This document shows, one piece after another, positions 11,418 through 54,004 of a stretch of DNA of 64,000 bases. The DNA is from Naegleria gruberi (taxonomy: Eukaryota). How positions within the stretch are numbered: the first letter of the stretch is position 1; every line of letters begins with the position of its first letter. The DNA lies in the NCBI GenBank assembly GCA_000004985.1, contig GG738845.1, one strand, 5' to 3'. A program made the position numbers and the translations under genes. The notes beneath the pieces are model-generated. The model saw nothing but the letters and a program-made list of their open reading frames with translations. It searched no databases and had not been told where the DNA came from.

Positions 11418-12704
11418 TTATTTCGTTGTTCTACGTTTCATTGGAAGGAGTGTTTGTTCTTGATTATTCATTTCATTAAACATAATTTTAGCAAAATTGG
11501 AGCATTCTGAAATATATTCTAACTTCCCATCAGTTTGTTGGACCTTAAAGTCAACCACCCTCTTTTTTCTTTTTGGGAAATAGTCACTTTCTGATGGGTC
11601 ACTAACAATCTCTACATAGTTTTGGATAATATCTTGCTCGATTAATGATTCATTTTGTGTTGAAATAATGTTTGCTCTAAATTTCAAAGTATTAATAATT
11701 TCTGTTACTTTTTGATTCAAAATAGGTTGGGTAGGGCTAAAAATTTTCCCAAGACAATATAAATCATCTCCCCAAATCATATCTTCAATTGTAATTATAT
11801 TAATTTTCATGCATTCTCTCAATAAATCTCCAACAAGATCATTGAAAAATAAATTGGGGAGACCAAGGAAAAAATCAACCACTAACACCTTATAAACTTT
11901 CATAAAAAGTTCAGCAGATAACAAATCCTCAATGGAAAAAGAAATGATTTCCTGTTCTTCAAATTCAATTCTTTTAAGAGAAGACACCATTTTCGAAAAA
12001 TCTTCTTGAGTGAAATTTAACAATTTGTAACAATAAGAATCTCTTAGAGTATAATCAATTCTATCTGCACAAAGCATTGGAAAATCCTTTTCCAATAATG
12101 TGTAAGTGTCCAGTTTTAAATTTTCAACAACATCTTGCATGTTAAATTCTTTCAAAATATCCATAAGGGAGAGAGAATTTCCAATATAATTAATAAACTT
12201 ATCATTTGGAGCTTGAATAATGTTATCCAAAATAGTTTCATGGAAATCATCTTTTCTATTTTCCAAAATAATATCAACCAAGTGGCTAAAAGCTGTATGT
12301 GAAATGTCATGTAGTAAACCAGCTAATTGTTGCTTGTGATCTGTTGGGCTGAGTTTTCTAATCAGTAACATAACCCCAATGGAGTGTTCCAATCTTGTGA
12401 CGTTATACTTGTGAGTATTCCACAAGAAGAAGCCTCCTGCTTGATGAATTTTATCTAATCTTCTGATAGCACTGCATTTAAACAACAGGGAATGCAATAA
12501 TTGGGAAAATTTATAATCTCGTGTAAAGTCAAAAGAACCGTAAACAGGATCCTGTATTGTCAAAATTATATCATCAGTATGAGTAATTAAAGTTTGACGT
12601 TTTTGATCAACATCTCCAACAACTTGGTTCGACGAATAATTGCCAAAGTCGCCGAGAGCAGTAATCTGTGTTCCATTCATTTTTTTTACAGATTTTTGCA
12701 TCAT
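11418..12704 (-). CDS. HD-domain phosphohydrolase, SAMHD1/dGTPase-like (COG1078 family)
   Basis: The start is ATG 12704 (MMQKS). It carries the HD motifs RLEHSIGV, GLLHDISHTAFSH and LCADRIDYTLRD. It is a single exon. The start lies only 20 nt after the LSG1 stop. Confidence 0.7.
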   Translation of the reverse strand: MMQKSVKKMNGTQITALGDFGNYSSNQVVGDVDQKRQTLITHTDDIILTIQDPVYGSFDFTRDYKFSQLLHSLLFKCSAIRRLDKIHQAGGFFLWNTHKYNVTRLEHSIGVMLLIRKLSPTDHKQQLAGLLHDISHTAFSHLVDIILENRKDDFHETILDNIIQAPNDKFINYIGNSLSLMDILKEFNMQDVVENLKLDTYTLLEKDFPMLCADRIDYTLRDSYCYKLLNFTQEDFSKMVSSLKRIEFEEQEIISFSIEDLLSAELFMKVYKVLVVDFFLGLPNLFFNDLVGDLLRECMKINIITIEDMIWGDDLYCLGKIFSPTQPILNQKVTEIINTLKFRANIISTQNESLIEQDIIQNYVEIVSDPSESDYFPKRKKRVVDFKVQQTDGKLEYISECSNFAKIMFNEMNNQEQTLLPMKRRTTK

Positions 12705-12724
12705 TCGAGTTAACTCATTGACTT

Positions 12725-14949
12725 TTATTTCATAAACTTCTTGAGGTATGTAAATTTTCTTCTCTTTTGTTTTTCAGTGAGCTTTTCGTAAGGTGATTGA
12801 TTATCAACAGGTTGTTCTTCTGGTTTTTGTTCAACAAGAATGGTTTGTTCATCCAATTCAAATGGATCATAACCTTTGGCTTGAATGATCTTTTCCTTCT
12901 TTCTCTCAAGAGACTCGGTATGAACATTGACACGATTGAAATCATCAATTTCACCTTCCCATTCCATTTCGTCCTCAGATTCTTCTAATGTAGCCTCTTC
13001 TTCTTCATCAGAGTTGTAAATGTCTTCTTCGTCATCATGATATTCTCCTTCTTCTTCGTCTTCACTTTCTGTAAAGTATTCACCATCGTCTTCCAATTCT
13101 TCATCATGATTAATGACAATGATTTCATCATTATCATTAAGCATTCCTTCTGATTGTATCTTATCATTTTCTTCCAAATCATCAACTTGAATATTTTCAG
13201 GAGGTGCATGGCAATACAGAATTTTACCATCTATGTAATCTTTCAAAATACGACGAGCAGCTGTTGGATAGTTGGGCACGAAATTCTTGGACATCAAACT
13301 CTTTGCAATACAAAAAGTCTTAAGTAAATTTTCTGGAGTAACAAATGTCATACGTTGTTTTCCAGGAAGTTTTGGGAACGACAAACCATATGTAAGTTCG
13401 AAAACACGTCTAGGAACACGACAACAAACCAATTCTATTGGTGGAATGTGATCTCTCATTTGGTGATCAATTGAAATAATACCATTTACAATCATTTCTT
13501 CCTTGGTTGTTGTAATTGATGGGAAAACTAGACCTGGACAGTCAGCAATCATTATACTTTCACCAATTGGAAGTGTTTGGAAATGTTTTGTTTTACCTGG
13601 AGTGGAACCAACTGCAACCTTCTTTTTACCACATAACACATTTACAAGTGATGATTTACCAACGTTTGGATAACCGACCATACCAACAACAACTCTACCA
13701 ATGTCACTCTTCTTATTTTCAGGATTGAACTTATTCATCAAACTCTTAAAGAAGAATAACAATTCAGATCTATCAAAAATATATGTCCAATCTTTTTCTT
13801 GGGGATTTTCATAATTAGTAGTATCGAATGAATCTAGTTCCTCTTGTTGTTCTTTTAAAAGATCTTCTCTGGTAATTTGACGATTTGCAATTTTAGAAAT
13901 TTCATTCAAAGCAGAGAAGAAGATAAAGTTAATCTTCTTCTTTTTAAAGTAGCATGCCCATTTGAATCTTTGCTTTTTTGTAAGCAAATCAGCCTTATTC
14001 AAAAGTAAAAAGTTTTCCTTTGATGAATCAACCTCTTTCACATACTTTTCTAAATCTTCACTTTGAAATAATAATGGATTACGAGAATCTACAATTTGAA
14101 TAACAATGTCACTTCTCTCCACAACACGCCATAATTGTCTCCAAACTTCAATGTTCTTTTCATATGGTGTGAGTGTAGCATCATAACTTTCTTCAATCTC
14201 TGCCAAATTTCTTCTCCACTTTAAGAATGATTCGGTTTCAAATTGAATGAGTTTCTTCTTTGCTAGTTCATTCTTTTTTTCCTTTTTCTTCTTTTTCTTC
14301 TTTTGTTCGGGCTCAGTTGACTCTTGAACATAATTCATCAAATCATAGGCTTCCTTTGGTCTTCTAGGTATTGGTAATTGTATTCCCATTTCTTGTAATT
14401 CACGAACACGTTCATAAATTTCATCTTGTGATTTTTCCTTCAAAACCAATGTTCCTTCAGCATAGGCTTCATCGTCATCATCTTGATTTTCCTCATCTAA
14501 AATTATTTCATATTATTTAAAAAAATTATTAATCAATGATAAAACATACCATCTCCTTCTTCTTCTTCATCCCTATCAACGACATGAAATTCTCTCCGAG
14601 AGCCATCTTCATCAGTATGTATTAAAACAGTAGCACTATCTTTTTCATACTTTTTTAAGCTCATCTTGGCGTTTAACATTAAATCTTGGAGATCTGTTGT
14701 TCCAATTAAACTTTCCAATTTTCCTCTGCCTTTGTTGAGCATATTGTGCATGATATTATCTTCACGTAAAATTTCTTCTTCGATAGGAAGTTCATCGGAG
14801 CCCATGGTTACGGTTTCTTTACCCAATATTGCATCAGCAACTGGTTCTTGATGTCTATCAGAAAACACCTTGTCCTTCTTTCGGTTACGAGCTTTTAAAA
14901 TTGTTTTACCTAATCCTCCGGATTTATTCTTGGTTCTTGTTCCTGGCAT
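12725..14949 (-). CDS. LSG1: Large-subunit GTPase 1 (LSG1, circularly permuted GTPase), 2 exons
   Basis: Exon 1 is 14949..14550 (MPGTRTKNKSGGLGKTILKARN...). The intron is 14497..14549 (gtatgtttt...ttttag, 53 nt). Exon 2 is 14496..12725. A long block matches human LSG1: LKWRRNLAEIEE...WRQLWRVVERSDIVIQIVDSRNPLLFQSEDLEKYVKEVDSSKENFLLLNKADLL. The G-motifs appear in circularly permuted order: GYPNVGKSS, then DCPGLVFP. There is an acidic C-terminal tail. Confidence 0.88.
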
Positions 14950-16927: not shown

Positions 16928-19900
16928 TTAAACAATTGTCTTTCTAATAATTCTTCCATCTCCACCAGATGTATAGAAAAATTGAGTGCTTATCTCAGAC
17001 CATGTAACACCTTCTTGAGTGAAAAGTTTCTTCTTTGGGTGAGTGTCTGGATAAAAGTATAATTGTTTCTTTAAATTCTTCATATCCCAAACAGTTATGT
17101 GACCATTGGAGCAACCAGTAACAAAGAAATCTTCTGTAACATCAATATTTAAAACTTGAATACTGTCATGTTGAGTGGAGGTCTTTTGTAAAAAACCATA
17201 ACTTCCATCTTCTGCATCAAAGATGTAAATATCTCCCTTCTTGGTACCAACAAGTAATAGTTTATACTTGTAAGAATAGCGAAGGGCAATTGGTTCATCA
17301 TTGTTAGGGAATAAGTAATAGAACATTTTAGCATCTTGATTTGGCAAGAATAAATCCCAAATACACAATTCGCCTCCCTTTTGTGATTGTCCAATAGTTG
17401 CAATCAAACTGCCTGACTCTAAAAATGAAAAATCATTTACCTTAGTGCCATGACAATGTAAATGATAAAAGTAATGTAGACTTTCCTTGGATGCTTCAAA
17501 TCTCCATAATGTAAGATAACCTGATGTATCTGTGACACCAAATTTGTATCCAAATCTGGAGAAACGAATGTTAGTAATTGGTGATGTACCAGGTTCTCTA
17601 TAAGTTCTCAAAGCATATTGGAATCCATATTGCCACATGAATACAGAACCATCTGCACCTCCAGATATATAGAAAGGTAAAAATGGATGAGATACTAAAA
17701 CGTTGGCTGTTTGATTTCTGTCAATTTTTCCAACTTTTTTGACTGGTTGTTTAGATGGAGGAACATTTGATTGTCTTCTAAAATGAGATGCAGATGGAGT
17801 TGTAGTCGTGAAGGAAGGTCTTTTACCAACAGAAAATCTTTGTTTAAGCTTGTTCATATAAGAATTGCTTGAATCGACAGAAGACATTGGATTGGAGAAA
17901 CCAATAAACTTTTTCAAATTCTTGTTGGACATGGCTTCATCATCATTTACCGTATCTAGGAAGTCAAAAACGTTAAAGTTTGAAATGCTTGGAACTTTAG
18001 CAATAGAAGAGGACTGCTGTACAAACTTGGTATTATTTACATCCTTGGCAGCAATTTCATCAAATCGGTGGAATGATTGATCCCAAGTATTGGCTTCCTC
18101 ATCTAAAAGTTTGTCAAGTGAAGGATTTCTCTTTCTGTATCTAATAGAATGTTCAATATTAATCTCTCTAATACATTTGCCAGATGCATATGCCAAATAG
18201 CTTGGGTTATTGGAGTCTACACAGAAAGATTTGATCAATTCTTTACATTTGACAATTTCAATATCTGCAGAGAATTTCAAAACTTCATCTGATTCTGTCT
18301 TTGAGAAGTCGGAGGAAGTTTCGGTAGTGTTCTCACCACTAGCAAATTTTGCTAGACTACTATTGACGCTTACGGAACTGCTAATATTTGGTTTTGGTTT
18401 AGATGATAAATCCATCAAGTAGCTCCATAATTGTTGGGAAGTTGGATCAGACTTGAAAGTATCGAAAATCTTTTCATCCTCTAACCAATGATCACTAATA
18501 CAAGACAAGAGAAGATTTTGTTGTCCTCCAACTTGTTCCAATCCCAACTCTGGTAGAGCATGTGCCAATGAGTGGAAATGATCCTTTGACGATTGAGTAC
18601 GTTGATGCATTTTCTTTGATCCATGAGAAAGGGTTTCTACCATGCTTGATAAATTATTTCTTGTTGAGAGTGCGTTTACATCTTTCAAATTAGGAGCCCC
18701 ATGCTCAGAGACAGTGTATACTTCCATTTCTCTATATTGAAGTCGTCTTTCTAAATGGGAGCACCACAATGCAGAACATGAAAGAGCAGTTTGTGCACAG
18801 AGTGAATATTGTTGCTTATTGATATCATCCCTCTTCTTTTGGGATTGTTTGACAAATCCAGAGTAGGTTTCATCATAGGCATGTTCAATAAAATCCTTTA
18901 GAGTTGTTGTAAACTTGAACACTACAAATGCATCAAACATTTCCCAATGAAATTGCTTTTCAATTCTTTCAACATCCTCGTTTCTATCACTTCCAGATTT
19001 TGTGGTCTTGTTGTGATAGTTTTCGAGAAGATTTTTGTAATAGTCTTTCTTCTTCTCAGCTTCTTCTTTGTTAATGATCAAACCGGATGTCTTATTGACA
19101 GGAGCTTTTTTCTTTCTTTTCTCTTCTTGGTCAATTTCCTCTTGCATTGCCTTGTTTATCTTATTATCCAACATCTTTTTCTTGAATTTTTTGTGGAACA
19201 TGGCCATTCTATCGAAAAGTAAATGATAAAACTTGTCAAATACTTCTTTTCCTTCAAAGCTTGGACGAGAGGACAACGAATCTCTTTCCTTTTTATCAAA
19301 ATCTTGATGAAGAGTAAAAAGTGTGAAAAGCCCCTCAAAATCACGGTTAAAGTATAAAATTACAAACATCATTGTCTATTCAAGTTAAAAATGATCTATG
19401 TTTTTTTCAAAATACTTACTAAAAGAGTTGATGAGAGATCTGATTGTTGGTGTTCGGTAATGATTACCTTATTGCTCTTCATTCTACTGTAACAATGGAC
19501 ATATTCCTTTAGTAATCCTTCTAAAACGTTAACTTGTGATTTTCTTAATTGATTCTTGATTACAAGAGAAAGTGTGTTTTCAACTTGATAAACAAAAGAT
19601 TCCAAAATTCTAAGAATTGAACTTGGCTTGGAGCAAAGTAAACACCTTGCTGCTAATAATCCATTGACTCTTGTGAACACTTTGAGCTTTTTGATTAGCA
19701 TTTGTTTGTCAATATCCAATTTTTCAACAAGCTCATCAATATCTGTCATTATCTTCTTATGATTCTTGTCCCAGTCACTGTGGTAATTTGAATTGGTACG
19801 ATAACAACAATCATAAAGTTCTTGAGAAATGATTGTGAGGGCTGTTTTGAATTTGAGAAGTTCAGTAAGATCAGTTTGTTCTTTAGCATCCTCAATGGAA

Positions 19901-22900
19901 ATAGTGGAAGAGTTCAATTGCTGTTGTTTAGTGTTACCCATTCCCATACCACTCATTCCACCAAACCCACTCAAAGTTCCACTTGCAAGATTTCCTGATG
20001 TGCCTGATCCTCTCATGGAGTTACTCATTCCCATATTGTTCATTCCACCAAATCCACTCAGAGTTCCACTAGATAGATTTCCAGAAGCCATGGAATTACC
20101 CATTCCCATACTGCCCATACCAAACCCACTTAAAGTTCCACTTGCAAGATTGCCCGAGTTAATGGAAGAAGTCTTACTCATTGAATTACCCATTCCCATA
20201 CCACTCATTCCACCAAATCCACTTAAAGTTCCACTAGACAAATTTCCAGAAGCCATGGAATTACTCATTCCCATACCACTCATTCCACCAAATCCACCCA
20301 AGGTACCGCTAGATAAGTTGCCAGATGTCATAGAGCTATTCATACCCATTCCCATACTACTCATTCCGCCAAACCCTCCCAAAGTTCCACTTGTCAAATT
20401 TCCTGAAGTACTAGGTGTAGTTTTAGGTGTCCCAAAGGCTCCCATATTGATTTGACCAGACATTAAATCATTTTGTCCAGTTGAAGTATTCAACTTTCTT
20501 TTAGAAGTATATTGTTCCATATTTTTAAGTTTCAATAAATGTTCTAAACAAAGTGTGTAAAGTCCAACTTGGCTATAATAATGAGCAGTTCTTAATAATA
20601 TTGGAAGAGCATGCTTTGCAACAAGATCTGATGAATTCAAGTGTGGCTTGGAATCTACCTTAATACAGAATGCAAAAAGAGAAGGATCAAAAGCTTCATT
20701 CTCCTCTCCTCTCTTGATGAGTGTTTCAATGGATGTTTCATACTTTTTCAGTGTCCACAAAATAACACCTTGCATCCATACATCCTTGCTTTCAGTGTAT
20801 CGTTGATAGAGTTCATTTTCCAACATGTTCTTACAGAAATTACTATCATCACCACAATATAGACGAGCAATGAAGAAAGCTAAATCGTATTCTTTGGCGC
20901 TTTTGATGAGAATACTGATAGCGTCTTTAGGATTATCAGCAAGTAAAAAATATGCGGCAGCATAGTAATAATCCTGTCTACTAAGTAAAGTATAGGCATT
21001 CTTAGATGCTGCTACTCTACATTTTTCATCTGTGAAATCCTTATTTAAGAATTCAGCAACCTTCTCATTACCTTTGAGTTTGAAAAGTCTAGCCAATGCT
21101 CCTTTCTTCTTAATAGCCATATAATACAAAGCACATTTGGTAGGATCATTTGTTTCCTTATAAATTTCTGTTGCAAGTCGTTCAGCAACCTTTCTCAAAG
21201 AATTATTATTCATCCAGTAACAAACACCCAACTGTTCTACAAGTTTCCAACAAATATCCTCTTCTTCTGGGCAAATCATACGCCATAATGAATCCTGTGT
21301 TTCAGAAAGTAAAGCCCAAGCTATCATTGAACTGTTTACCTTTTCTATTAATAAATTATCATGCTCCGTTGATGATTTTGAAGAATCCCTCATTTCGGGT
21401 TTTCTTTTATCGTATAGAAACTGTAAATACTTGACTGTCACAAGATATCTGATACCAGCTGGATCTAAGGCTTCAGGATTTCTTTGAAGCTCAATAAAAG
21501 TGTCAACTACAGCCTGTAAGTTCATTTGCTCTATCTTTGAAATGCCAGGTAAGTGAATACTACTTTTAGAAAGGAGAGAGTTTAAATAATGGACATCGGA
21601 ATAAATGTTAATTTCTTCTTCTTCAGTTTCTGTCGGGGTTTCCTTCTTTTGGTTTTCTTCTTTGGCTATTTCTTCGTCAATATTTGTGAACTTGTCAAGG
21701 AGTGTTCTTCTCTTTTGTACAACAGGTTCTGTCTTCTTTGATTCTTCCTTTAAGAGAGAGGTCACTTTAATTGATGGAATTTCCAATAGGTGAGAATAGT
21801 CCTTGTCCTTATTTAGATATTCTTCAATTTTATCATTCTTCTTCTTTTCAACCAAATCTTCATAAATCTTCAAATGCTTAACTAAATGATGTATAATTGT
21901 CTTGATTATACTAAATCTTCCATCCATAAGTAATTCTAAAAGGAAATTTGGGTGATAGTCTACTAGTCTTCTGTGCGTAAGTAAGGATTCTGTATTAAGA
22001 GTTGGTTCAGATGCCAATTTGAAAAGAGACATTAGAGCAAGAGAATCATCATTTTGTTGAGTCTTTGTGTACACATGCAAAGATGAACCAAAAGAGGCGA
22101 TAATAGCCTTATCCTTTGTAACTGTAATTTTGGAACATGGATGACCTTTAACTGAAGGCATAAATTGTGTAACCTTTTTCCAGTATTGTTTTTGTTGTTT
22201 GATTATTCCTGGAGGTATCTTTGATTGAGTGTAGTACAATATCTTGGAATCTGTTCCAATACAAATAACAAACTGACCGTCTCCATAGCTCAACCATTCA
22301 AAATCGTGCACGAAATCACTCTCTGTATTGATAGATTGTTCTAATGTGTATGTTACATGGGATTCATTTTCCCAAATTTTTACACAACTTGAGGAAGAGG
22401 TTGTAGTAGCAATTCTAGAAACCAATTCACAGCACCTAACAGTAGTAATTGGTTCTTTTTCGGCTCTAAACTCGAACCACTTTTGTAATATGAGTTTTTC
22501 CTCATCTGTATTAATACTGGCTGTAGAAGAGCTAGAATTGGAAGTAGTGGCGGTAAATTTTCCAAGAAGACCACCAATCTTTGGTTTCGGAGGCTCTTTG
22601 ACTTCATTTTCCTGTTTTTTCAATCTTATTACAGAGACAGTACCATCCTTATTACCCAGAGTAATAACTACCACTCTTTGATTAGAAAAATACTTCTTAA
22701 TACTGGATTCATTTGATAAAGCTGTCTTACTCTCTACAGTAAAATGTTTTAAAGTTGTATATAAAATTAAATGACTTACTATGAATATCATACACAAAAG
22801 GAACTCCTTTTACACAGTCTGCACTGCAAACGATCTTTTCAAGATTTTGTTTGATAAGGGTTTTACATTCGAATTGATTTACATCATTTTGCTTTGCCTC

Positions 22901-24968
22901 AACTTGGAAAATGCCAATGGTTTTACAATTCGAAGCAATAGCAACTACCAATGCTCCAATTGAGGAGGTTTTTTCTGGACTAGTAGGAGATGTTCCAAAA
23001 GGCAAAACTTTGAGGAACATACAATCAGAAAAATCTTCTGAATTTGGAAGAATAAAATTCAATGAATGAATATTATAGTAAGAAGGTGAAGGTGGAAATA
23101 TTGTAGATTCATAGATGCTAGAGAGGTTGTGAGTGAGAGGGTTGACTGATTTTACGTGAATGACTTCAATACCTTTGTTTGTTGAGCAAAACAAATGAGG
23201 AGAAGTAGGAAACCATGAAATATTTGTTGCATTAATTTGAAAATCTTGAATATTGGTCAAAACATCTTTAGGGCTATAAAATGGTGTATCTCTTATATGC
23301 CATGCTACAAGATGGTTATTATCCTTATCTAATGATGCCATTATTGGTAGACTTGGGTGGCATTCCATATTTTTAACATCTCCAATATGTCCTGTAAATA
23401 CATTAAGTAATTCTAATTGAGGACGTTTAGCCAAGTTTAACTCCCAACTAGATAACATTCCATTTCTACTTTGTACATAGATTGTTAAAATTTTTGGAGT
23501 TGTAGAACCCAAATCAAGATTTGAATCATCAGCTGTTTTGTAAACCATTGATACATTTAATGGATCTTCAATACCTTTTAATGCATTAGGCATCTTTATC
23601 CACATGGAAGTTTTTGGAGTTCTTCTTGGAAAATCGGCCAATCCTTGTAATAAATCAATCATTAATGTACCATCAGATTGAACTGTTCCTAACCATGTTT
23701 GTGATTCGAATAGACCTGTATCAGAACTTGCTTTTTGAAGTTTAGTCTCCAAACTGATCTTTGTCTCACTCTCTAAAATTATATCCTTGTGATCACCTTC
23801 ATAAGACTTCTTTCTTTTTTTTCTGAGGTATTGTAGAAGTAGCTCATTTGGGCTCCTCTCATTAGCTGTATTTAACCATTGCACATTGGAAGGAGTTTCC
23901 TTTTCAATGATAGAACAAACATAAAATGACAAGTCTTCATTCTCGTTTGTTTCACTCCATACACGTACCACATTGTCAATAGATGTTGTCAATAAAACAT
24001 TAGCTGTAAATTCATCTCTTTGTTGTGATTGTATATCCTTAAATCTCCATGAGATGGAAGTAACTGAACGAGGATGAGGTAAATAAATGTAGGAAAAACT
24101 TTCTTCTTCATCATCCTCAATAGTTTGTGAAGTAGATTTTGGATCTACAATAGTAATTACTGGAGTAAATAATGATACTCTGACTTGAGGTTTGTTTCTA
24201 TACCAAACCTTTACAAGACGATCAAACTTGGACACTGTTGCAAAATATTTTTCATCTGGTGAATATGCAACTAAGTAAATTGGAGTTGGATTGTCATATT
24301 TCCAAACCATATTCCATTTCTAAACTATATTATAAATTTCTAAACATAAAGAAACATACATAAACTTGATTTCCTAGAATAGGTTTTCCTTCAAAAATCA
24401 TTGTAGTTTTTCCACCAACAATTAGTCTATCACCATAAAAATTCCAATCCATGCATTCGAATTCATCTGTTGAGTTAATAACCTGTTCAACAATCCAAGA
24501 AGGGCTCTTTTTCAAGGCACCATTGTCAACCTCATCTTCAACTGGAGAATAAATAACAATTTTTCCTCTTGAGCAAGCAGCAATTCTTCCATGAAGATTA
24601 CTCCATTTTACGCTGGTAATAGTTTCATCATGACCATCCAATAATTGAACAAAACTATTTCCACAATAAACCATAACATGTCTTCCGCTTGCAAAAGCAA
24701 TCACTTCATCACCCATAAATGTTGACCATGTAAAAGCTTGAGGATAGGGATTAATAGAACCAGGACAAACCTGCCAAGCATTAATCCCTTTTGATCTGTT
24801 GATACTTGGTGTTGTCTGTTGTTCCGTTGCATTGGATCCTAATATATTTAAACCGTTTGAGAAGATATTTCCTCCAAACGATGATGAAGAACCAGCAGGT
24901 GTAGAGGGAGTACTTTTTGGTGTATTAACCAAAGGAGTAGTGGTTCCGCTCGAAACACCGTTAAACAT
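16928..24968 (-). CDS. DMXL: DmX-like / rabconnectin-3 alpha / Rav1 homolog (V-ATPase assembly regulator), 4 exons, ~2636 aa
   Basis: The exons are 24968..24360, 24319..22780, 22733..19420 and 19375..16928. The introns are 24320..24359 (gtatgt...gtttag, 40 nt), 22734..22779 (gtaagtcat...ctgtag, 46 nt) and 19376..19419 (gtaagtat...gaatag, 44 nt). All phases are consistent and the total is 7911 nt. The N-terminus AWQVCPGSINPYPQAFTWSTFMGDEVIAFASG...LDGHDETITSVKWS matches the DMXL N-terminal WD region. The exon 2 start ...VAYSPDEKYFATVSKFDRLVKVWY matches the DMXL 'FSPDG.FFATAGKDD.LLKVWY' block. C-terminal WD repeats are GGADGSVFMWQ, GCSNGHITVWD and SGGDGRI. It joins four separate track ORFs. Confidence 0.72.
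19925..20440 (-). repeat. In-frame coding tandem repeat (~75-nt unit x ~7) encoding a 25-aa Gly/Met/Ser/Asn-rich unit inside exon 3 of the rabconnectin gene
   Basis: The protein reads ...SGNLSSGTLGGFGGMSGMGMSNSMA SGNLSSGTLSGFGGMSGMGMGNSMS..., about 7 imperfect copies. On the + strand the DNA shows the recurring unit cattcccataccactcattccaccaaatccactyaaagttccac. The antisense Pro-rich ORF 19829..20455 is the mirror image of this periodicity. Confidence 0.85.
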
Positions 24969-26883: not shown

Positions 26884-27921
26884 TTAAAAAGAGAAGAAAT
26901 GATCACCACGTTTCATTTCTAATTTTTCTTCCAAAACCTTCTTCATTGCAGCCAACATTGGTGGAGGTCCACACATTAAAATATTCATCTTATCACCCTT
27001 TGCTGGCAAGTACTTTTCAATCAATTCTTGAGTAATAAAACCAACACCTTGAGTCCAACCAGCTGGTGGTTCGTTCAAAACATTGAAAAGAGTAAAGTTC
27101 TTGTGTTTAGATGCCAATTCCTCGAGTCTATCACGCAAAATGATATCTTGTTCAGTCAAATTACCATATAATAAACTAACTTCAGTCTTGTCATCTTCAT
27201 GTTTGAGAATTTCTTCAATAACTTGTAACATTGGAGTAATACCAGTACCACCGGCAATCATACCCAATTTGTTATACTTGTTCTTTTCATATGTAAAACG
27301 TCCCTTTGGACCACTAACCAAAATACTTTCTCCAACTTGCATATTTTCCAAATGTTGGGTCATTAATCCTTTTGGATAAATTTTGGCAACAACATCGAAG
27401 AATCCCTTATCATCATTAGATGATGTTGGTGTATAGCTTCTAGCGATTTCTTCTCCATTGATTGAAGCCCTATTACAACAATTATTCCGATTGTTAAAAA
27501 GGATAGTAGATTACACTTACTTCAAGGAAATGTGTTGACCGACTGGTAAACCCAAGCACTTTCCAGTTGGAAGTTCAAATCTAAAGAGACGAACTGGGCA
27601 TTTAACTTCAGGACCATCGGTAAGAGTGATCTTTTTGATGAGTTTGAATGGTCTATATTCTTCGGTGGAGAGAACACCTTCACTCTTTACAGCAGCAGTA
27701 GTATTACTGGTAGTGCTGATTGGTTTGGTTGGTTTACTACCCATAAGTTTTTTAATTAAAACTGAAAAAGCTACTATAGCAAAAGCTGTTACTCCAAGTG
27801 TTGTCAAATCTCCGGAGAGAAGTCTTTCAATTNNNNNNNNNNNNNNNNNNNNNNNNNNNNNNNNNNNNNNNNNNNNNNNNNNGATCTTCATTAATTCGAA
27901 ATAGATTAAAGTTGATTTCAA
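26884..27921 (-). CDS. CYB5R: NADH-cytochrome b5 reductase (membrane-anchored); 2 exons; the 5' exon is interrupted by a scaffold gap
   Basis: Exon 1 runs from about 27921 to 27521 and contains the N run 27833..27882, so the start is uncertain (MKI-gap-...). It has the TM anchor LTTLGVTAFAIVAFSVLIKKL and the FAD domain FRFELPTGKCLGLPVGQHISLK. The intron is 27470..27520 (gtaagtgtaa...gtaatag, 51 nt, phase 2). Exon 2 is 27469..26884: ASINGEEIARSYTPTSSNDDKGFF...MIAGGTGITPMLQV...CGPPPM. It aligns with human CYB5R3 across the splice junction. Confidence 0.82.
27833..27882. other. Run of 50 N: an assembly or scaffold gap of unknown true length
   Basis: Literal n characters occur in the sequence, inside CYB5R exon 1. 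Confidence 0.99.
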
Positions 27922-47649: not shown

Positions 47650-48879
47650 TTACATAACAATTTGACCTGGTTCCAAAATATCTTCACCAACAGTCTTGTG
47701 AGGCAAAACCTTAACGTTGTTCACAAAGACTTCATCAGAAACGTGAGTATCCTCGCCCAAAACTGTATCATTAGCAATTCTGGACCATTTACCGACCGAA
47801 GATTTCCAACCAATGATTGAAGATTTTACAAGAGCATGTTCCTTTACATGAGCTGATTCAAAGATTGTTGATCTAGTAACTCTAGCACCTTCTCCAATAG
47901 TAACATTATCACCAAGAACAACATTAGGTCCAATTACAGCTCCTCTACCAATCTTGACATTTTCTCCCAATAGAACTGTTGATTCATTGATGATCTTGTA
48001 GGATCCATCCTCAGGATTCTTAGCAAAATGTTGAGAATTTTCTCTCAAATGTTTGTCACTTGACAGATACATGCACATACCAGTAATGTAATCCTTTGGT
48101 TGACCAATATCCATCCAGAAACCCTTTAAATCCATTGCATATAATTCCTTATCCCTGGCCATCAATGGGAAGATTTCTCTTTCAATACTGGTTGGTCTCA
48201 ATTCAATTCTTTCCAAAACTTTTGTGCTAAAAACATAAATACCAGCGTTGATTCTGTCGCCAACGAAAGTCTTTGGTTTCTCAACAAATTTTTCAATTTC
48301 ACCTTGTTTTCCATCTTGTGTAACAACTACACCATATTTACTTGGATCATCAACTTTAGTTACCATAATGGTTCCTTCCTTTCCATGATTTTTATGATAT
48401 TCCAAAAGTTCATCCAATGAATATTCACAAATAACATCAGAATTTAAAACAAAGAAGTATTCAGTTTCATCTGCACCGAGAATATCCCTGGCAAGGGCCA
48501 AAGGTCCAGCTGTACCTAATGGTTCATTTTCTACAGAATAGGTAATCTTAACTTGATACTTTTCTTCGTACTTCTTCATAGCATCAATCATTTCTTGTGG
48601 CTTATAATTTACAGCAAGAACAATTTCTGTACATCCAGCCTTCTTTAAAGCTTCAATTTGATGGACAACAATTGGTTTATTGGCAAAGTGAATCAAAGGC
48701 TTAGCAGTAGAGAAGGTGAGTGGTCTGAGTCTTGTTCCGTATCCACCAACAAGAATGCTACATGTTTTTTGATGTATTGTTGCAGTTATTATTTAATATT
48801 ATTAATAATTATTTTAATTCGTAAATATATTGATGAATAATAATTATTATCAACACACTTACAGTGCCTTTACTTTCAT
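47650..48879 (-). CDS. GMPP: Mannose-1-phosphate guanylyltransferase (GDP-mannose pyrophosphorylase), 2 exons
   Basis: Exon 1 is 48879..48863 (MKVKA-L). The intron is 48758..48862 (gtaagtgtg...catgtag, 105 nt, phase 2). Exon 2 is 48757..47650 (ILVGGYGTRLRPLTFSTAKPLIHFANKPIVVHQIEAL...EPLGTAGPLALARDIL...), ending in a left-handed beta-helix region. It is 374 aa. Confidence 0.88.
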
Positions 48880-49540: not shown

Positions 49541-49581
49541 TGATTCCCTCTAAATTTTTTTTGAATTATTTTTTAAAAAAG

Positions 49582-51624
49582 ATGCCCAAACTACCTTCTC
49601 ATGATGATAGGAAGCTTCTCGACATTGAAAATGATAATGTGGAGGATTCATCCGATTTATTCACATCACTCACAAAAACATTAGCTTATGATGCATCCCA
49701 AGTGAATAGTTTTAAACAACGTAACATTTCAAATATAAATGTTGACAGTCATTCATCTAAAACAAAAGCATCATTGACCGTACATAATATGGCTGATGAG
49801 AAACTTTTTGAACAATTACTTCCTGCTTCATCATTGGATTTTTTCGGCTCTTCAAAGTCATCATCAGTTTTGGATCGTATTAAAAAAGTGAAACAAGCAA
49901 ACGAGGAATCAAAGCAACAAACATCTCAAATTGAGGAAGAAGATGAGGAGGAAGATCTTTCTGACTTACCACCTCCATTGACAACAGCTGAGGAAATTAA
50001 GAAATTTAGAAAGCAAAACAAGATCAAGATAAAAGGTATTGTAAGCCAAATGGATCCAGACCTGCTTCTTGCTCCAAATATGAAAACTAATTCTCAAGAT
50101 GTTTATGTTTCCCCTTATAAACCATTCGTTTCTTTTTTGGAGTTAAAAAATAGATATCCAGATTTGGTTCGTGATTATTTATATAGAAATATTAGAACAA
50201 AGCTCAAATACAAACTTCCAACACCAGTTCAAATGCAAGCTGTTCCCGTCTTACTTTCTAAAAAAGATTGTCTGGTAGCTGCTCCAACTGGTTCAGGTAA
50301 AACTGTTGCATTTTGTTTACCAATGTTATGCCTATTAGGAAAACCAAAGAAGGAGGGTTTTAGAGGATTAATTATTACTCCAACAAAGGTTTTAGCTGAC
50401 CAAATATTTAGAAATTTAGAGGTACTAGGAAGTGGAAAGGATTGGAAGATTCGTCTAAATGATCAATCCGCAGCCGATAGTGAGGGAGGTGAGTCTCATG
50501 CAGTGAGGGATAACCACAAATTCCAATCAAAGAGAAACGATATTTTAATTTCAACTCCAATGCGTCTTTTAAGTATGATTAAGAGTGGAATAATTGATTT
50601 GACTAACGTGGAAATGCTTGTTTTTGATGAGGCTGATCGTTTGTTTGATTTAGGATTTATAGAACAGGTGGATGAAATTTTAGGTTTTTGCACTAATCCT
50701 AATTTGGTAAAGACATATTTCAGTGCTACTATTCCTTTAAGTTTGGAACATACTCTCAAAACTCAGACCTCTTTATTGAAAATAGACTCTGTCCAAGTTA
50801 GTATTGGTGTAAGAAATGCAGGTCCAGACACTATTGAACAAAAATTAATATTTGTTGGATCTGAGGAAGGAAAATTACTTGCTCTTAAGGAAAGAATAAG
50901 AATTGAAGGATTGAAACCTCCAGTACTTATTTTCGTTCAATCAATAGATAGAGCAAAACAATTATATAAGGAATTATTATTTACATTGACAAGCACTACA
51001 GGAATGTCTTCAAGTTCAAATGAAACTGGTGCATCAGATCCTCTTGACTATTGCGTAGATTACATTCACGGAAAGAGAAGTGATAAGAAAAATCATGAAG
51101 TAATTCAGAATTTCAGAACTGGTAAAACTTGGGCTTTAATTTGTACAGATGTCATGGCTCGTGGTTTGGATTTTAAGAATATTAGTTGTGTTATTAATTA
51201 TGACTTTCCAACCTCAGTACCAAATTACATTCACAGAATTGGTAGAACTGGTAGAGCTGGACAAAAAGGTGAAGCTCTTACATTCTTTACGTATGCAGAT
51301 ATTCCTCTTTTAAAGAACATTGCTGATGTATTGAAAAATTCAGGATGTCCTGTACCTGATTACATGTCAGAAATTAAGCTTGTTTCTGAGGAAAAGATGA
51401 TCAAAACAGCTTTGGAAAATATCAAGTCAACCAGGATTGGTCACTCTAAAAAGGAAGATGGTAAAACATTGGACAAGAAGGAAAAGAGAAAGGCTTTCGT
51501 GACAGGCTCTAAAAAAAATAACAAACCAAAGAAAACCAAAGAAATAGTATCACAAAACACAACACAAAACGAAAAGAAGAGAAAGAGAGTTTCATTACTG
51601 GAAGGCAAACCAAATAAAAAGTAA
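49582..51624 (+). CDS. DEAD-box ATP-dependent RNA helicase (DDX52/Rok1-like)
   Basis: The true ATG is at 49582 (MPKLPSHDD...); the track start at 49474 is an alternative start. It has the Q motif (PTPVQMQAVP) and the motifs AAPTGSGKTVAF, PTKVLADQ, VFDEADRLFDLGF, SAT, ARGLDF and HRIGRTGRAG. There is a K-rich C-terminal tail. Confidence 0.85.
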   Translation: MPKLPSHDDRKLLDIENDNVEDSSDLFTSLTKTLAYDASQVNSFKQRNISNINVDSHSSKTKASLTVHNMADEKLFEQLLPASSLDFFGSSKSSSVLDRIKKVKQANEESKQQTSQIEEEDEEEDLSDLPPPLTTAEEIKKFRKQNKIKIKGIVSQMDPDLLLAPNMKTNSQDVYVSPYKPFVSFLELKNRYPDLVRDYLYRNIRTKLKYKLPTPVQMQAVPVLLSKKDCLVAAPTGSGKTVAFCLPMLCLLGKPKKEGFRGLIITPTKVLADQIFRNLEVLGSGKDWKIRLNDQSAADSEGGESHAVRDNHKFQSKRNDILISTPMRLLSMIKSGIIDLTNVEMLVFDEADRLFDLGFIEQVDEILGFCTNPNLVKTYFSATIPLSLEHTLKTQTSLLKIDSVQVSIGVRNAGPDTIEQKLIFVGSEEGKLLALKERIRIEGLKPPVLIFVQSIDRAKQLYKELLFTLTSTTGMSSSSNETGASDPLDYCVDYIHGKRSDKKNHEVIQNFRTGKTWALICTDVMARGLDFKNISCVINYDFPTSVPNYIHRIGRTGRAGQKGEALTFFTYADIPLLKNIADVLKNSGCPVPDYMSEIKLVSEEKMIKTALENIKSTRIGHSKKEDGKTLDKKEKRKAFVTGSKKNNKPKKTKEIVSQNTTQNEKKRKRVSLLEGKPNKK

Positions 51625-51639
51625 AATTTATTGAAAAAA

Positions 51640-52830
51640 ATGAACATTTTAAAGACACGGTCAAAAATTGTGAAACCACTCTCACAAATCGCAACTCTCC
51701 ATAAAACATTAGCAATTGGAACAATTAATAACCAATCATTTACACAAAATAATAGCACGGAATCAAGACTATATACATTTTCTGCCAATAATACCATTCG
51801 CTATTATCATAATAATTTAGTAATCAACAAGCAAGAAACTACTTCACACTCATGTAGTCATCAACAAGTGCAAACAATTTCATGGCCTCAAAAAATGGTT
51901 GACTCTTCACCTGCCTCTATTAGACCATACTTACGTTTAATGAGACTAGATAAACCAATTGGAACTTGGTTGCTATTGTATCCTTGTTTGTGGAGTTTAG
52001 GATTGGCAGATATTAATTCATTAATACCATCACCATATTATGCAAGTTTATTTGCAATAGGTTCGATTATAATGAGAGGAGCAGGATGTACAGTTAATGA
52101 TTTATGGGATAGAGATTTTGATAAAAAGGTGGAAAGAACTAAAACCAGACCTATTGCAAGTGGAGAAATATCAGTGAGAAATGGTATAATATTTTTAGGC
52201 GCCCAATTGTTGACTGGATTGGCTGTTCTTGTCCAATTTAATATGTATACTATTGCAGTAGGAGCCAGTTCATTATTCTTAGTTTTTACTTATCCTTTAA
52301 TGAAAAGAATAACTTATTGGCCACAAAGTTATTTGGGATTGACTTTTAACTGGGGTGCTTTTGTGGGCTATTCTGCTCTTGCTGGTTTTTGCGATTGGTC
52401 AATAGTTGTTCCACTTTATTTAGGAAGTATTGCTTGGACAATTGTTTATGATACCATTTACGCCCACCAGGACAAGAAAGATGACAAACAAATTGGAGTC
52501 AAATCAACTGCCTTACTTTTTGGAGAAAGAACAAGAGAAATTTTGACAGGATTTTCCTTAATTTTTGGTGCCTTGATGACTATTACTGGTTATAATGCTG
52601 GATATGATTTTATCGAGCAATGGCCATATTACACAGCTGTTTATTCTTCTCTTTTGGCAGCTGTTTACAAAATTCATACCATTGACTATAATAATTCTGA
52701 ACAATGTATGAAAACTTTTGTTCAAAACAAATGGATTGGCTTGGTAATATTTATTGGTATTATTCTTGCAAATCTCACTAAAAGAAAGAAGCAAGCAGAT
52801 AATCAAACAGAAAAAGTGGAAGCCAAATAA
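51640..52830 (+). CDS. COQ2: 4-hydroxybenzoate polyprenyltransferase (COQ2, UbiA family)
   Basis: The ATG is at 51640; the track start at 51631 is TTG. An N-terminal presequence-like region of about 85 aa is K/R/S/T-rich. The UbiA motifs NDLWDRDFDKKVERTKTRPIASGEIS and YAHQDKKDDKQIGVKSTA are present, with multiple TM helices. The start is only 15 nt after the DEAD-box stop. Confidence 0.82.
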   Translation: MNILKTRSKIVKPLSQIATLHKTLAIGTINNQSFTQNNSTESRLYTFSANNTIRYYHNNLVINKQETTSHSCSHQQVQTISWPQKMVDSSPASIRPYLRLMRLDKPIGTWLLLYPCLWSLGLADINSLIPSPYYASLFAIGSIIMRGAGCTVNDLWDRDFDKKVERTKTRPIASGEISVRNGIIFLGAQLLTGLAVLVQFNMYTIAVGASSLFLVFTYPLMKRITYWPQSYLGLTFNWGAFVGYSALAGFCDWSIVVPLYLGSIAWTIVYDTIYAHQDKKDDKQIGVKSTALLFGERTREILTGFSLIFGALMTITGYNAGYDFIEQWPYYTAVYSSLLAAVYKIHTIDYNNSEQCMKTFVQNKWIGLVIFIGIILANLTKRKKQADNQTEKVEAK

Positions 52831-52832
52831 AT

Positions 52833-54004
52833 TTATCTTGATGTATTATTAATAGAATGAGATAGGGATGACACTCTCTTCTTCTTTTCTGTCAAACGTT
52901 TGTCTATTTCTTCGAATAATTGCTTAGACAATCGAGTTGCTTCATGATTTTCGCCAAGAATTTGTTCTCTTAATTTGAAAGCTTTTTGAAAGTAGGTGAG
53001 CGATTGAGGAAGGTTTCTATCCTTAAACAATATGAGTCCCATGTTATGGAGGGCTAAAGCATAATCATAGGTGTTCACTCCCAAATGCTTTTTCCGTATG
53101 GCAATAACTTTGTTTTGAAATTCTATCGCCTTTTTAAATTTTTTTACATCCTTAAGAACTTGAGCCATATTTTCATAGGTAAGGGCTGTAATTGGATGAG
53201 TGTCACCCAATATTTTTTCCCTAATTCGAATAGATTTATCATAATAATCAATGGCATCCTCTAATCTTGATTGGTGATCATAAATTACTCCAATGTTATG
53301 ATAAATATCTGACAAACATAATCTATCGTCTCCAAGAATATCTATATAGGTTGTTGTAGAATAGATACAGTTACATACTTACTTTCAGCTAATTTTTGAG
53401 CTCTCTGAAAGGTTACCAAAGCTTCATCATACTTTTTTTGATTAGTATATATTAAGGCAATATTCACCATTGGTGACACTATTCCAGGGAAGTTTTTTCC
53501 AAATTTAACTTCCAACCTCTGGATACATCTATTGTACAGTTCCAATGCAGATTCATCATCTCCGTTGCCATAATATGAAATTCCCATTGCAAGGAAAATG
53601 TTAGCACACATTTCCGCATCTTCAATTTTTGATTTCATGAAAATATTTAGACAGTCATTGAAACGATCTAGGGCCTCCTCAAATTTACCCTTATCGTATA
53701 GGACCATACCCCTCTCATATTCATTTAAAATCTTTCCAATTTTTTGATCCTCTGGAATCATGTTTGTGGAAGAGTGGGAAGTATCTTTTGTAGTCTCTTT
53801 TCTTTGATAGTAATTTTGAGTTTGGGTGGATGAAGTGTAAGAAGTCGGGATGAGATCATTGTTATTTGATGTTGGCTGAGGTTTTTTAGGTATGACAGCA
53901 CTTTTAGGTCTTTGTTTTAAAGATGATGCTTGTTGGAGTGAGGGATTATTTTGTGGCTCCTGTTGTGGCAGTAGTGGGTTAGAGGAGAAGGAAAACAGTG
54001 ACAT
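52833..54004 (-). CDS. TPR-repeat protein of the kinesin-light-chain type (TPR_10/12), 2 exons
   Basis: Exon 1 is 54004..53383. The intron is 53342..53382 (gtaagtatg...tatatag, 41 nt, phase 1). Exon 2 is 53341..52833. The junction gives ...RAQKLAE-N-ILGDDRLCLSDIYHNIGVIYDH... The array ...LGDTHPITALTYENMAQV... and ...LGENHEATRLSKQL repeats the KLC-like 'LG..HP.VA' unit. Confidence 0.65.

What the first reader, a model, noticed from the sequence alone, without database searches (positions are those of the whole stretch)
51625..51639. DEAD-box helicase stop and COQ2 start separated by 15 nt
The DEAD-box gene ends in TAA at 51622-51624 and the COQ2 ATG is at 51640, on the same + strand. The COQ2 frame is open for 86 codons before the first conserved UbiA region. 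That is far longer than chance in AT-rich DNA, so the upstream ATG is probably real and the N-terminal stretch looks like a mitochondrial presequence. This is a second example of near-abutting tandem genes. It suggests a general property of this genome: promoters embedded in upstream coding sequence, or polycistronic transcripts.
Basis: partly seen in the sequence, partly recalled or inferred. Interest (0 to 1): 0.5.

Follow-up and report, generated by a model that had tools for sequence, protein, structure and literature searches.

The report
Two Naegleria genes 15 bases apart
In the amoeba Naegleria gruberi a ribosome-biogenesis helicase gene really does stop only 15 bases before the start of the ubiquinone-synthesis gene COQ2, an extreme but ordinary case of this organism's known gene crowding that also shows the reference COQ2 model to be 85 codons too short.

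Summary
The window is Naegleria gruberi nuclear DNA. The ROK1/DDX52-type DEAD-box gene (49582-51624) ends in TAA at 51622-24. COQ2 starts at ATG 51640. The spacer is AATTTATTGAAAAAA. The next in-frame ATG is codon 86 (51895), not "Met87/51898".

The upstream ATG is very probably the real start. Four heterolobosean orthologues keep a conserved SWPQK motif just upstream of codon 86, carry Leu or Phe at that position, and have basic, acid-free N-termini of 60-90 residues. The reference model (NAEGRDRAFT_29145, 311 aa) starts at Met86 and looks truncated. The helicase stop is also genuine, because its C-terminal tail is conserved.

The junction is specific to N. gruberi. Relatives have other neighbours and spacers of 53-198 nt, so a rearrangement made it. 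The helicase carries AAUAAA in its last codons (51613-18). Published nanopore data for N. gruberi place cleavage about 15-20 nt after that signal, which falls inside the spacer. COQ2's promoter must therefore lie in the helicase's A-rich lysine-tail coding sequence. This step is inferred, not shown.

Polycistronic transcription is not supported. Some "abutting genes" elsewhere in the window are exons of one gene. Known kind, low interest.

The parts
49582..51624 (+). ROK1/DDX52-type DEAD-box RNA helicase CDS (680 aa), stop TAA 51622-24
   Evidence: Pfam DEAD plus Helicase_C. Best named homologues are ROK1/DDX52. The start at 49582 matches the orthologue N-termini and an identical 680-aa gene call, P0121. 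The C-terminal tail ...KKRKRVS...PNKK* is conserved with N. lovaniensis, N. fowleri and a JGI relative.
51511..51610 (+). A-rich (60% A) coding sequence for the helicase's lysine-rich tail; inferred site of the COQ2 core promoter
   Evidence: Among the most A-rich 100-nt stretches of the 64 kb (99.7th percentile), with AT skew about 0.6. No ATG lies in the 179 nt before 51640. The promoter role is inferred, not shown.
51613..51618 (+). AATAAA hexamer (codons Asn-Lys of the helicase tail), predicted poly(A) signal of the helicase mRNA
   Evidence: The same AAT-AAA codons end the helicase CDS in N. lovaniensis (L010) and the JGI relative (L008); N. fowleri has AAC-AAA. N. gruberi uses AAUAAA about 15-20 nt upstream of cleavage (PMC11529991).
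51625..51639 (+). 15-nt spacer AATTTATTGAAAAAA: predicted helicase 3' UTR and poly(A) site, plus the A-run context of the COQ2 start codon
   Evidence: An A5-A8 run directly before ATG occurs in about 10 of 23 confident starts in the window.
51640..51894 (+). COQ2 N-terminal extension (85 codons): presequence-like start plus a poorly conserved linker ending in the conserved SWPQK motif
   Evidence: Open frame with P about 0.002. Codon log-likelihood ratio is +4.7 in frame against -34 and -32 out of frame. Net charge +5 with the first acidic residue at position 41. SWPQK is conserved, and orthologues have L/F at codon 86.
51895..52830 (+). COQ2 core (UbiA prenyltransferase domain) as in the reference model NAEGRDRAFT_29145 (311 aa), stop TAA 52828-30
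   Evidence: Pfam UbiA E=1.2e-56. 100% identity to XP_002683169.1. The Asp-rich motifs NDxxDxxxD and DxxxD... are invariant.
52826..52831 (+). AATAAA overlapping the COQ2 stop codon ('dual-use' stop and poly(A) signal)
   Evidence: Nine of 33 ORF ends in the window have this arrangement. It is described for 11-13% of N. gruberi genes, with a median 3' UTR of 22 nt (PMC11529991).
52833..54004 (-). Convergent TPR-repeat gene (two exons, about 52833-53315 and 53342-54004); its stop codon lies 2 nt from the COQ2 stop
   Evidence: Pfam TPR_12/TPR_10. The same convergent neighbour is present in N. lovaniensis-like contigs, L002 and Willaertia, with stops 2-68 nt apart.

Best explanation
Two unrelated, independently transcribed N. 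gruberi nuclear genes were joined head-to-tail by a lineage-specific rearrangement. They now lie 15 nt apart.

The helicase gene ends at TAA 51622-24. Its poly(A) signal AAUAAA is written into its last codons (51613-18). Its mRNA is therefore predicted to be cleaved about 15-20 nt later, inside the 15-nt spacer and just before the COQ2 ATG.

COQ2 is translated from ATG 51640. Its first 85 residues form a fast-evolving, basic, acid-free mitochondrial targeting region plus a linker. The reference model that starts at Met86 is truncated.

Only 15 nt separate the two coding sequences, so the COQ2 core promoter must sit in the A-rich lysine-tail coding sequence of the helicase. The COQ2 transcription start must lie in the last few tens of bases before the ATG, giving an ultrashort 5' UTR.

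Shown: the gene boundaries, the rearrangement, and the presence and conservation of the signals. Inferred: the actual RNA ends and the promoter position.
For: - Organism and reference model.
- Start codon: SWPQK is conserved immediately upstream of codon 86, and that codon is L/F in N. lovaniensis, Willaertia, P0005, P0009 and the JGI relative, all of which carry 60-90-residue N-extensions. ATG 51640 is the only upstream in-frame ATG. The frame is open with P about 0.002. Frame-specific codon usage favours this frame. The composition is presequence-like in all orthologues, against 2 of 22 other N-termini in the window that lack acidic residues. The A-run start context is typical of the window.
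- Helicase stop: the C-terminus is conserved.
- Independent assembly.
- Rearrangement: different neighbours on the inner side of both genes in relatives, with conserved outer neighbours.
- Poly(A) geometry: AATAAA at 51613, conserved in 3 of 4 Naegleria helicase genes. Published direct-RNA data for N. gruberi give AAUAAA 15-20 nt upstream of cleavage, a median 3' UTR of 39 nt, and 22 nt for dual-use stops (PMC11529991).
- A second tandem pair shows the same geometry: the LSG1 stop with AATAAA, then an ATG 20 nt later.
Against: - No RNA data for this locus could be reached, so the transcription start, the poly(A) site and the promoter are all unmeasured.
- The extension scores low for coding potential (LLR +4.7 against a mean of 21.6 for coding chunks; only 1.3% of chunks score lower).
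- The extension shows no significant sequence similarity to orthologous extensions (shuffle p 0.18-0.52).
- Met86 also sits behind an A-run (CAAAAAATG).
- No UGUA auxiliary element lies upstream of the helicase AAUAAA.
- N. fowleri lacks the AATAAA at the orthologous position.
- The presequence test used here is a home-made composition heuristic, not a validated predictor.
Confidence: 0.72

Rival explanations
1. The reference annotation is right. COQ2 is translated from Met86 (51895), and 51640-51894 is untranslated leader or intergenic DNA, so the true spacer is about 270 nt.
For: The reference model XP_002683169.1 starts there. Met86 has an A-rich context. The extension has weak codon bias and no detectable similarity to other species' extensions.
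Against: Conservation runs through SWPQK upstream of codon 86, and orthologues have L/F at that position, so the ancestral start is upstream. An 85-codon open frame has P about 0.002, while the other frames hold 6 and 9 stops. A protein starting at MVDSS has an acidic residue at position 3 and no targeting region, although COQ2 is an inner-mitochondrial-membrane enzyme (established knowledge).
Confidence: 0.08
2. Both start codons are used. Leaky scanning or two transcription starts give a long mitochondrial form and a short form from Met86.
For: Both ATGs sit behind A-runs. The Met at codon 86 is an N. gruberi novelty where relatives have L/F. Several in-frame starts have been discussed for human COQ2 (recalled from memory, not checked).
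Against: Nothing in the sequence requires it. A single Leu-to-Met change is an unremarkable substitution. No known role exists for a COQ2 form without a presequence.
Confidence: 0.1
3. The helicase and COQ2 are made from one bicistronic or polycistronic precursor, as in the related kinetoplastids. COQ2 is then expressed by processing or reinitiation.
For: The two genes share a strand, lie 15 nt apart and are even in the same frame. Naegleria belongs to Discoba, like trypanosomatids. The window holds a run of about 8 genes on the - strand.
Against: The adjacency is recent and absent in relatives. The helicase has its own conserved AAUAAA that would cut the RNA just before the COQ2 ATG, leaving an uncapped downstream piece. 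No spliced-leader trans-splicing is known in Heterolobosea (own knowledge). Heterolobosea show about 2 genes per same-strand run, and equal intergenic lengths within and between runs, as in yeast (preprint 10.64898/2026.07.29.740908).
Confidence: 0.07
4. Assembly or annotation artefact: a mis-join, or one fused gene.
For: Same frame with a single stop codon between the two. An assembly gap exists elsewhere in the window (27833-27882).
Against: An independent metagenome assembly gives the identical junction. Both proteins are complete, and each has separate orthologues that end or start at the same places. TAA followed by A is a strong stop context (own knowledge).
Confidence: 0.01

Closest known systems
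Ultrashort 3' UTRs and 'dual-use' stop codon/AAUAAA signals of Naegleria gruberi (Genome Res 2024, PMC11529991)
   Same: The COQ2 stop is embedded in AAUAAA (52826-31). The helicase AAUAAA lies 4 nt before its stop. Nine of 33 ORF ends in the window are dual-use. The predicted 3' UTRs of about 10-22 nt fit the published medians of 22 and 39 nt.
   Different: The paper deals with 3' ends only. It does not describe what happens when the next gene's start codon lies at the predicted cleavage site, and the locus studied here is not mentioned in the text available.
Overlapping or abutting transcription units in compacted eukaryotic genomes (microsporidia, nucleomorphs, Giardia); recalled from the literature, not re-read here
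   Same: Intergenic spacers are too short to hold a promoter, a 5' UTR and a 3' UTR, so signals are embedded in neighbouring genes. Convergent genes have overlapping 3' ends.
   Different: N. gruberi is a free-living amoeba with a 41-Mb genome, not a reduced parasite or endosymbiont genome. Transcript overlap at this locus is inferred, not observed.
Kinetoplastid polycistronic transcription units and nematode operons
   Same: Same-strand genes lie very close together, and Naegleria is a distant relative of kinetoplastids within Discoba.
   Different: No spliced-leader trans-splicing. Gene order is not conserved. Each gene carries its own canonical AAUAAA. Same-strand runs are short in Heterolobosea.
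COQ2 / 4-hydroxybenzoate polyprenyltransferase with an N-terminal mitochondrial presequence (yeast Coq2, human COQ2)
   Same: A UbiA core with both Asp-rich motifs, preceded by a poorly conserved, basic N-terminal extension.
   Different: The extension (85 aa) is not alignable outside the species. The reference database entry lacks it.

Membership tests
UbiA prenyltransferase / COQ2 | Match to the UbiA family profile over the whole domain | tested here: met
   PF01040, E=1.2e-56, residues 112-362, profile positions 1-245 of 250. Top homologues are named 4-hydroxybenzoate polyprenyltransferase, mitochondrial.
UbiA prenyltransferase / COQ2 | Two Asp-rich motifs (NDxxDxxxD and DxxxD-type) | tested here: met
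   N153 D154 D157 D159 D161, and D271...D278 K279 D281 D282, are invariant in the alignment.
Mitochondrial matrix-targeting presequence | N-terminal, net positive, free of acidic residues, rich in Ser/Thr, able to form an amphipathic helix | tested here: met
   First 40 residues: 5 K/R, 0 D/E, 10 S/T, maximum helical moment 0.66. The same pattern holds in four orthologues. Only 2 of 22 other N-termini in the window lack acidic residues. This is a heuristic, not a validated predictor.
Mitochondrial matrix-targeting presequence | Import into mitochondria and cleavage by the processing peptidase | not testable with these tools
   Needs TargetP/MitoFates-type prediction, or import and N-terminomics experiments.
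DEAD-box helicase, ROK1/DDX52 subfamily | DEAD and Helicase_C domains with motifs I, II (DEAD), III (SAT) and VI | tested here: met
   PF00270 E=9e-38 and PF00271 E=4e-26. AAPTGSGKT, DEAD, SAT and HRIGRTGRAG are visible in the translation. The nearest named homologues are ROK1/DDX52.
N. gruberi dual-use stop codon / poly(A) signal | AAUAAA overlapping the stop codon | tested here: met
   COQ2: AATAAA 52826-31 over TAA 52828-30. The helicase hexamer (51613-18) ends 3 nt before its stop, so it is adjacent rather than overlapping. AGTAAA 51620-25 does overlap the stop.
N. gruberi dual-use stop codon / poly(A) signal | Cleavage and polyadenylation about 15-20 nt downstream of the hexamer | not testable with these tools
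   No RNA reads for the locus. The supplementary 3' UTR tables of PMC11529991 are not held.
Polycistronic transcription unit (kinetoplastid type) | Gene order and long same-strand clusters maintained; no gene-specific 3'/5' signals between genes; trans-splicing | tested here: not met
   The junction is absent in four related genomes or contigs. A canonical AAUAAA lies at the end of the upstream gene. Heterolobosea have about 2 genes per same-strand run. Trans-splicing itself was not tested.

The most novel reading that the evidence does not exclude
The roughly 30-nt module AAUAAA-N(19-21)-ATG, seen at both the helicase/COQ2 and the LSG1/HD-gene junctions, is a bifunctional terminator-initiator. 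In this reading, 3'-end formation of the upstream mRNA and initiation of the downstream mRNA are mechanistically coupled. Alternatively, the downstream mRNA derives from the cleaved precursor without spliced-leader trans-splicing. Either way Naegleria could run genes with essentially no private promoter DNA, which would be a possible stepping stone toward the polycistronic system of its euglenozoan relatives.
Probability: 0.06. Interest if true: 0.7.

Novelty: new member of a known kind. Interest (0 to 1): 0.2.

Why it matters
Practically, the reference protein for N. gruberi COQ2 (NAEGRDRAFT_29145) lacks its targeting region. Localisation predictions or mitochondrial proteome inventories that use it would miss the protein.

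Biologically, the locus is a clean natural experiment. A recent rearrangement put a gene 15 nt behind another gene's stop codon and 2 nt from a convergent gene's stop, and the gene stayed intact. This indicates that Naegleria promoters and UTRs need almost no dedicated DNA.

The locus would be a convenient test case for mapping core promoters in an organism where none are defined. It does not by itself reveal a new mechanism.

Tried and rejected
- Exact-protein look-ups of the 396-aa and 311-aa COQ2 forms found no contig. No transcript-derived contigs could be recovered, so RNA continuity and 5' ends remain untested.
- A JGI metagenome scan for closer COQ2 relatives gave only one distant hit. 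No dN/dS test on the extension was therefore possible. The only close sequence (L006) differs by 3 SNPs in 601 nt: one non-synonymous (A18T) in the extension and two, judged synonymous by eye, in the helicase. This gives no statistical power.
- DNA and protein comparison of the extension with the relative's extension, and with the DNA downstream of the relative's helicase, was run to locate the breakpoint or a recruited sequence. Homology starts only at 51879, and nothing is significant upstream.
- Literature searches for Naegleria transcription starts, promoters or overlapping transcripts found nothing specific. The supplements of the poly(A) paper are not held.
- I first guessed a ciliate (Stentor) from the roughly 20-nt ORF gaps. 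One search rejected this.
- I considered an intron inside 51640-51894. The only GT...AG candidate seen by eye is 38 nt long and would break the frame.
- Rfam and tRNA scans of the window were empty.

Full report
**What is there.** The coordinates are right. The + strand ORF of a DEAD-box protein ends with TAA at 51622-24. Fifteen bases follow (AATTTATTGAAAAAA, 51625-39), then ATG at 51640 opens a 396-codon frame that ends at TAA 52828-30. Pfam places DEAD and Helicase_C domains in the first protein, and a full UbiA domain at residues 112-362 of the second. Both genes are in the same reading frame, separated by a single stop codon.

**Organism and reference annotation.** The COQ2 core is 100% identical to Naegleria gruberi XP_002683169.1 / NAEGRDRAFT_29145, a 311-aa model. 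An independent metagenome assembly (L006/L007, run ERR1078381) carries the same two genes with the same 15-nt spacer and 3 SNPs in 601 nt. The junction is therefore not a mis-assembly.

**Is ATG 51640 the real start?** Four lines of evidence say yes.
- An 85-codon open stretch has a probability of about 0.002 in sequence of this composition. The other two frames of the same 255 nt contain 6 and 9 stops.
- In the alignment with N. lovaniensis, Willaertia magna, two environmental Naegleria-like sequences and a more distant relative, conservation does not begin at Met86. It begins five residues earlier (SWPQK/R), and the residue aligned with Met86 is Leu or Phe in every other sequence. Those proteins must start upstream, and they do: each has a 60-90-residue extension. 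In the closest relative (L002) the frame runs up to an ATG that gives MKRLSSLVSTASFHRNG.... In N. gruberi the only in-frame ATG upstream of codon 86 is 51640.
- The first 40 residues carry +5 net charge, no acidic residue and ten Ser/Thr. The four orthologues are the same (+5 to +6, first acidic residue at 41-56). Only 2 of 22 other N-termini in the window lack acidic residues. This is a composition heuristic, not a validated predictor.
- Codon usage favours this frame (log-likelihood ratio +4.7 against -34 and -32), although weakly for coding sequence (mean 21.6). That weakness fits a fast-evolving targeting region and linker. The extensions of different species are not significantly similar to one another, and DNA homology with the closest relative starts only at 51879.

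The ATG also sits behind the A-run that precedes about 10 of 23 confident start codons in the window. Met86 sits behind an A-run too, so this point does not discriminate.

**Is the helicase stop real?** Yes. The C-terminal tail (...EKKRKRVSLLEGKPNKK*) matches the tails of the N. lovaniensis, N. fowleri and JGI-relative orthologues (...KKRKKVSF...KRNK*) to within three residues of the end. The family is ROK1/DDX52. The start at 49582 fits the orthologues.

**How the junction arose.** The outer neighbours of both genes are conserved. The small divergent gene upstream of the helicase and the convergent TPR gene downstream of COQ2 are both found in relatives. The inner neighbours are not conserved.
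- In the JGI relative the helicase is followed by an NF-Y/CBF-type gene 198 nt away.
- In N. lovaniensis and N. fowleri the helicase is followed by a convergent F5/8-type-C gene.
- COQ2 is preceded by a PPR gene in N. lovaniensis and in L003/L004 (55 nt in N. lovaniensis), by another gene in L002 (53 nt), and by a divergent gene in Willaertia.

A rearrangement with a breakpoint between 51625 and about 51879 therefore created the adjacency in the N. gruberi lineage. This alone argues against a conserved co-transcription unit.

**How it most likely works.** Published nanopore direct-RNA data for N. gruberi show the following (PMC11529991):
[quoted passage not shown] - In 11-13% of genes the AAUAAA overlaps the stop codon ("dual use"), and these have a median 3' UTR of 22 nt.

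At this locus AATAAA occupies 51613-18, the Asn-Lys codons of the helicase tail. The same AAT-AAA codons end the gene in N. lovaniensis and in the JGI relative; N. fowleri has AAC-AAA. Cleavage 15-20 nt downstream falls at about 51628-51638, which is inside the 15-nt spacer. The helicase mRNA can thus end without entering the COQ2 coding sequence, and the spacer is about as short as the geometry of the poly(A) machinery allows.

The same geometry appears at a second tandem pair. The LSG1 GTPase gene ends in a dual-use AATAAA, and the next gene, an HD-domain-like protein, has its ATG 20 nt after the stop.

COQ2 itself ends in a dual-use AATAAA (52826-31). Its stop lies 2 nt from the stop of the convergent TPR gene, within a 10-nt palindrome ATAAATTTAT. 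This convergent arrangement is also found in Willaertia (2 nt) and L002 (7 nt). Each 3' UTR there must run antisense into the other gene.

What cannot fit into 15 nt is a promoter. By elimination, the COQ2 core promoter lies in the helicase's last 50-100 coding bases. This stretch is 60% A, among the most A-rich 0.3% of 100-nt windows in the 64 kb, and no ATG occurs in the 179 nt before the COQ2 start. The 5' UTR is probably no longer than about 25 nt, because a start upstream of 51613 would place the AAUAAA in the COQ2 leader. The divergent pair on the other side of the helicase has only 41 nt between its two start codons, which also points to very compact promoters and leaders. All of this paragraph is inference from geometry. 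No RNA ends for the locus were available.

**Rivals.**
- Translation from Met86 only, as in the reference model, conflicts with the conserved SWPQK, the L/F residues in orthologues, the open frame and the need for a targeting signal. I give it about 0.08.
- Use of both starts cannot be excluded (about 0.1).
- A bicistronic precursor is unlikely (about 0.07). The adjacency is recent. The upstream gene has its own conserved signal that would sever the RNA just before the COQ2 ATG. Heterolobosea show about 2 genes per same-strand run and no shortening of intergenic regions within runs (preprint).
- An assembly artefact is excluded.

**Generality.** The window is very dense: 89% lies in open frames of at least 80 codons. 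Nine of 33 ORF ends have AATAAA over the stop codon. Several apparently abutting ORFs, however, are exons of one gene. The ORFs at 24330-24968, 22727-24310, 19396-22791 and 16928-19372 together form a Rav1/DMXL-like protein: N-terminal WD40, Rav1p_C, then C-terminal WD40. Annotated tandem spacers in the related loci fetched here range from 55 to 1443 nt. Spacers of 15-20 nt are therefore the lower extreme of a compact genome, not its norm.

**Verdict.** The call on the start codon and presequence is supported, and it corrects the reference model. The "promoter in the upstream gene" reading is probable but unproven. The "polycistronic" reading is not supported. The phenomenon belongs to a known kind, namely compact protist genomes with ultrashort UTRs and dual-use signals as published for this very species, so interest is low.

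Noticed in passing
window 52826-52836 (also L005 7120-7132, L002 1425-1437): The COQ2 stop (TAA 52828-30, + strand) and the stop of the convergent TPR gene (52833-35, - strand) are 2 nt apart inside the palindrome ATAAATTTAT. The same convergent pair is 2 nt apart in Willaertia and 7 nt apart in a JGI relative, so antisense-overlapping 3' ends appear to be stably tolerated.
   Followed up: partly
window 12700-12730 (- strand): The LSG1 GTPase gene (exons 14533-14949 and 12725-14449) ends in a dual-use AATAAA/TAA. The next gene (11418-12704, weak match to the HD-domain protein PDB 2hek) has its first ATG 20 nt after the stop. This is the same AAUAAA-to-ATG distance (19-21 nt) as at the helicase/COQ2 junction.
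   Followed up: partly
window 16928-24968 (- strand): Four long ORFs separated by gaps or overlaps of about 20 nt are pieces of one Rav1/DMXL (rabconnectin)-like gene: WD40, Rav1p_C, WD40. They look like abutting genes but are exons. One junction (22727/22791) shows overlapping open frames, so the intron positions need proper modelling.
   Followed up: partly
window 49541-49581: Only 41 nt (TGATTCCCTCTAAATTTTTTTTGAATTATTTTTTAAAAAAG) separate the start codons of the helicase and a divergent 162-aa gene with no Pfam match. The same pair is 106-264 nt apart in relatives.
   Followed up: partly
window-wide start codons (e.g. 14949, 24968, 25668, 35303, 37155, 37932, 47531, 51640, 54004): About 10 of 23 confident start codons are directly preceded by a run of 5-8 A. 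This could be a translation context or part of an initiator-like element.
   Followed up: no
window 27833-27882: A run of 50 N (assembly gap) lies inside a - strand ORF region.
   Followed up: no
window 49582-51624: No N. gruberi reference protein appeared among the helicase homologues; only metagenome-derived identical copies did (P0121). The reference annotation may lack this ROK1/DDX52 gene or mis-model it.
   Followed up: no
window 47650-48840 (- strand): The GDP-mannose pyrophosphorylase ORF lacks its first roughly 23 profile positions and an ATG, so a short 5' exon and intron probably lie just upstream.
   Followed up: no
L003 3858-4360 / L004 1670-2172: In the N. lovaniensis-like environmental contigs the called COQ2 start (MQSRTEFNMEQ..., acidic) lies 500 nt after the PPR gene. 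The true N-terminus is probably further upstream or split by an intron, so those gene calls are likely truncated too.
   Followed up: no
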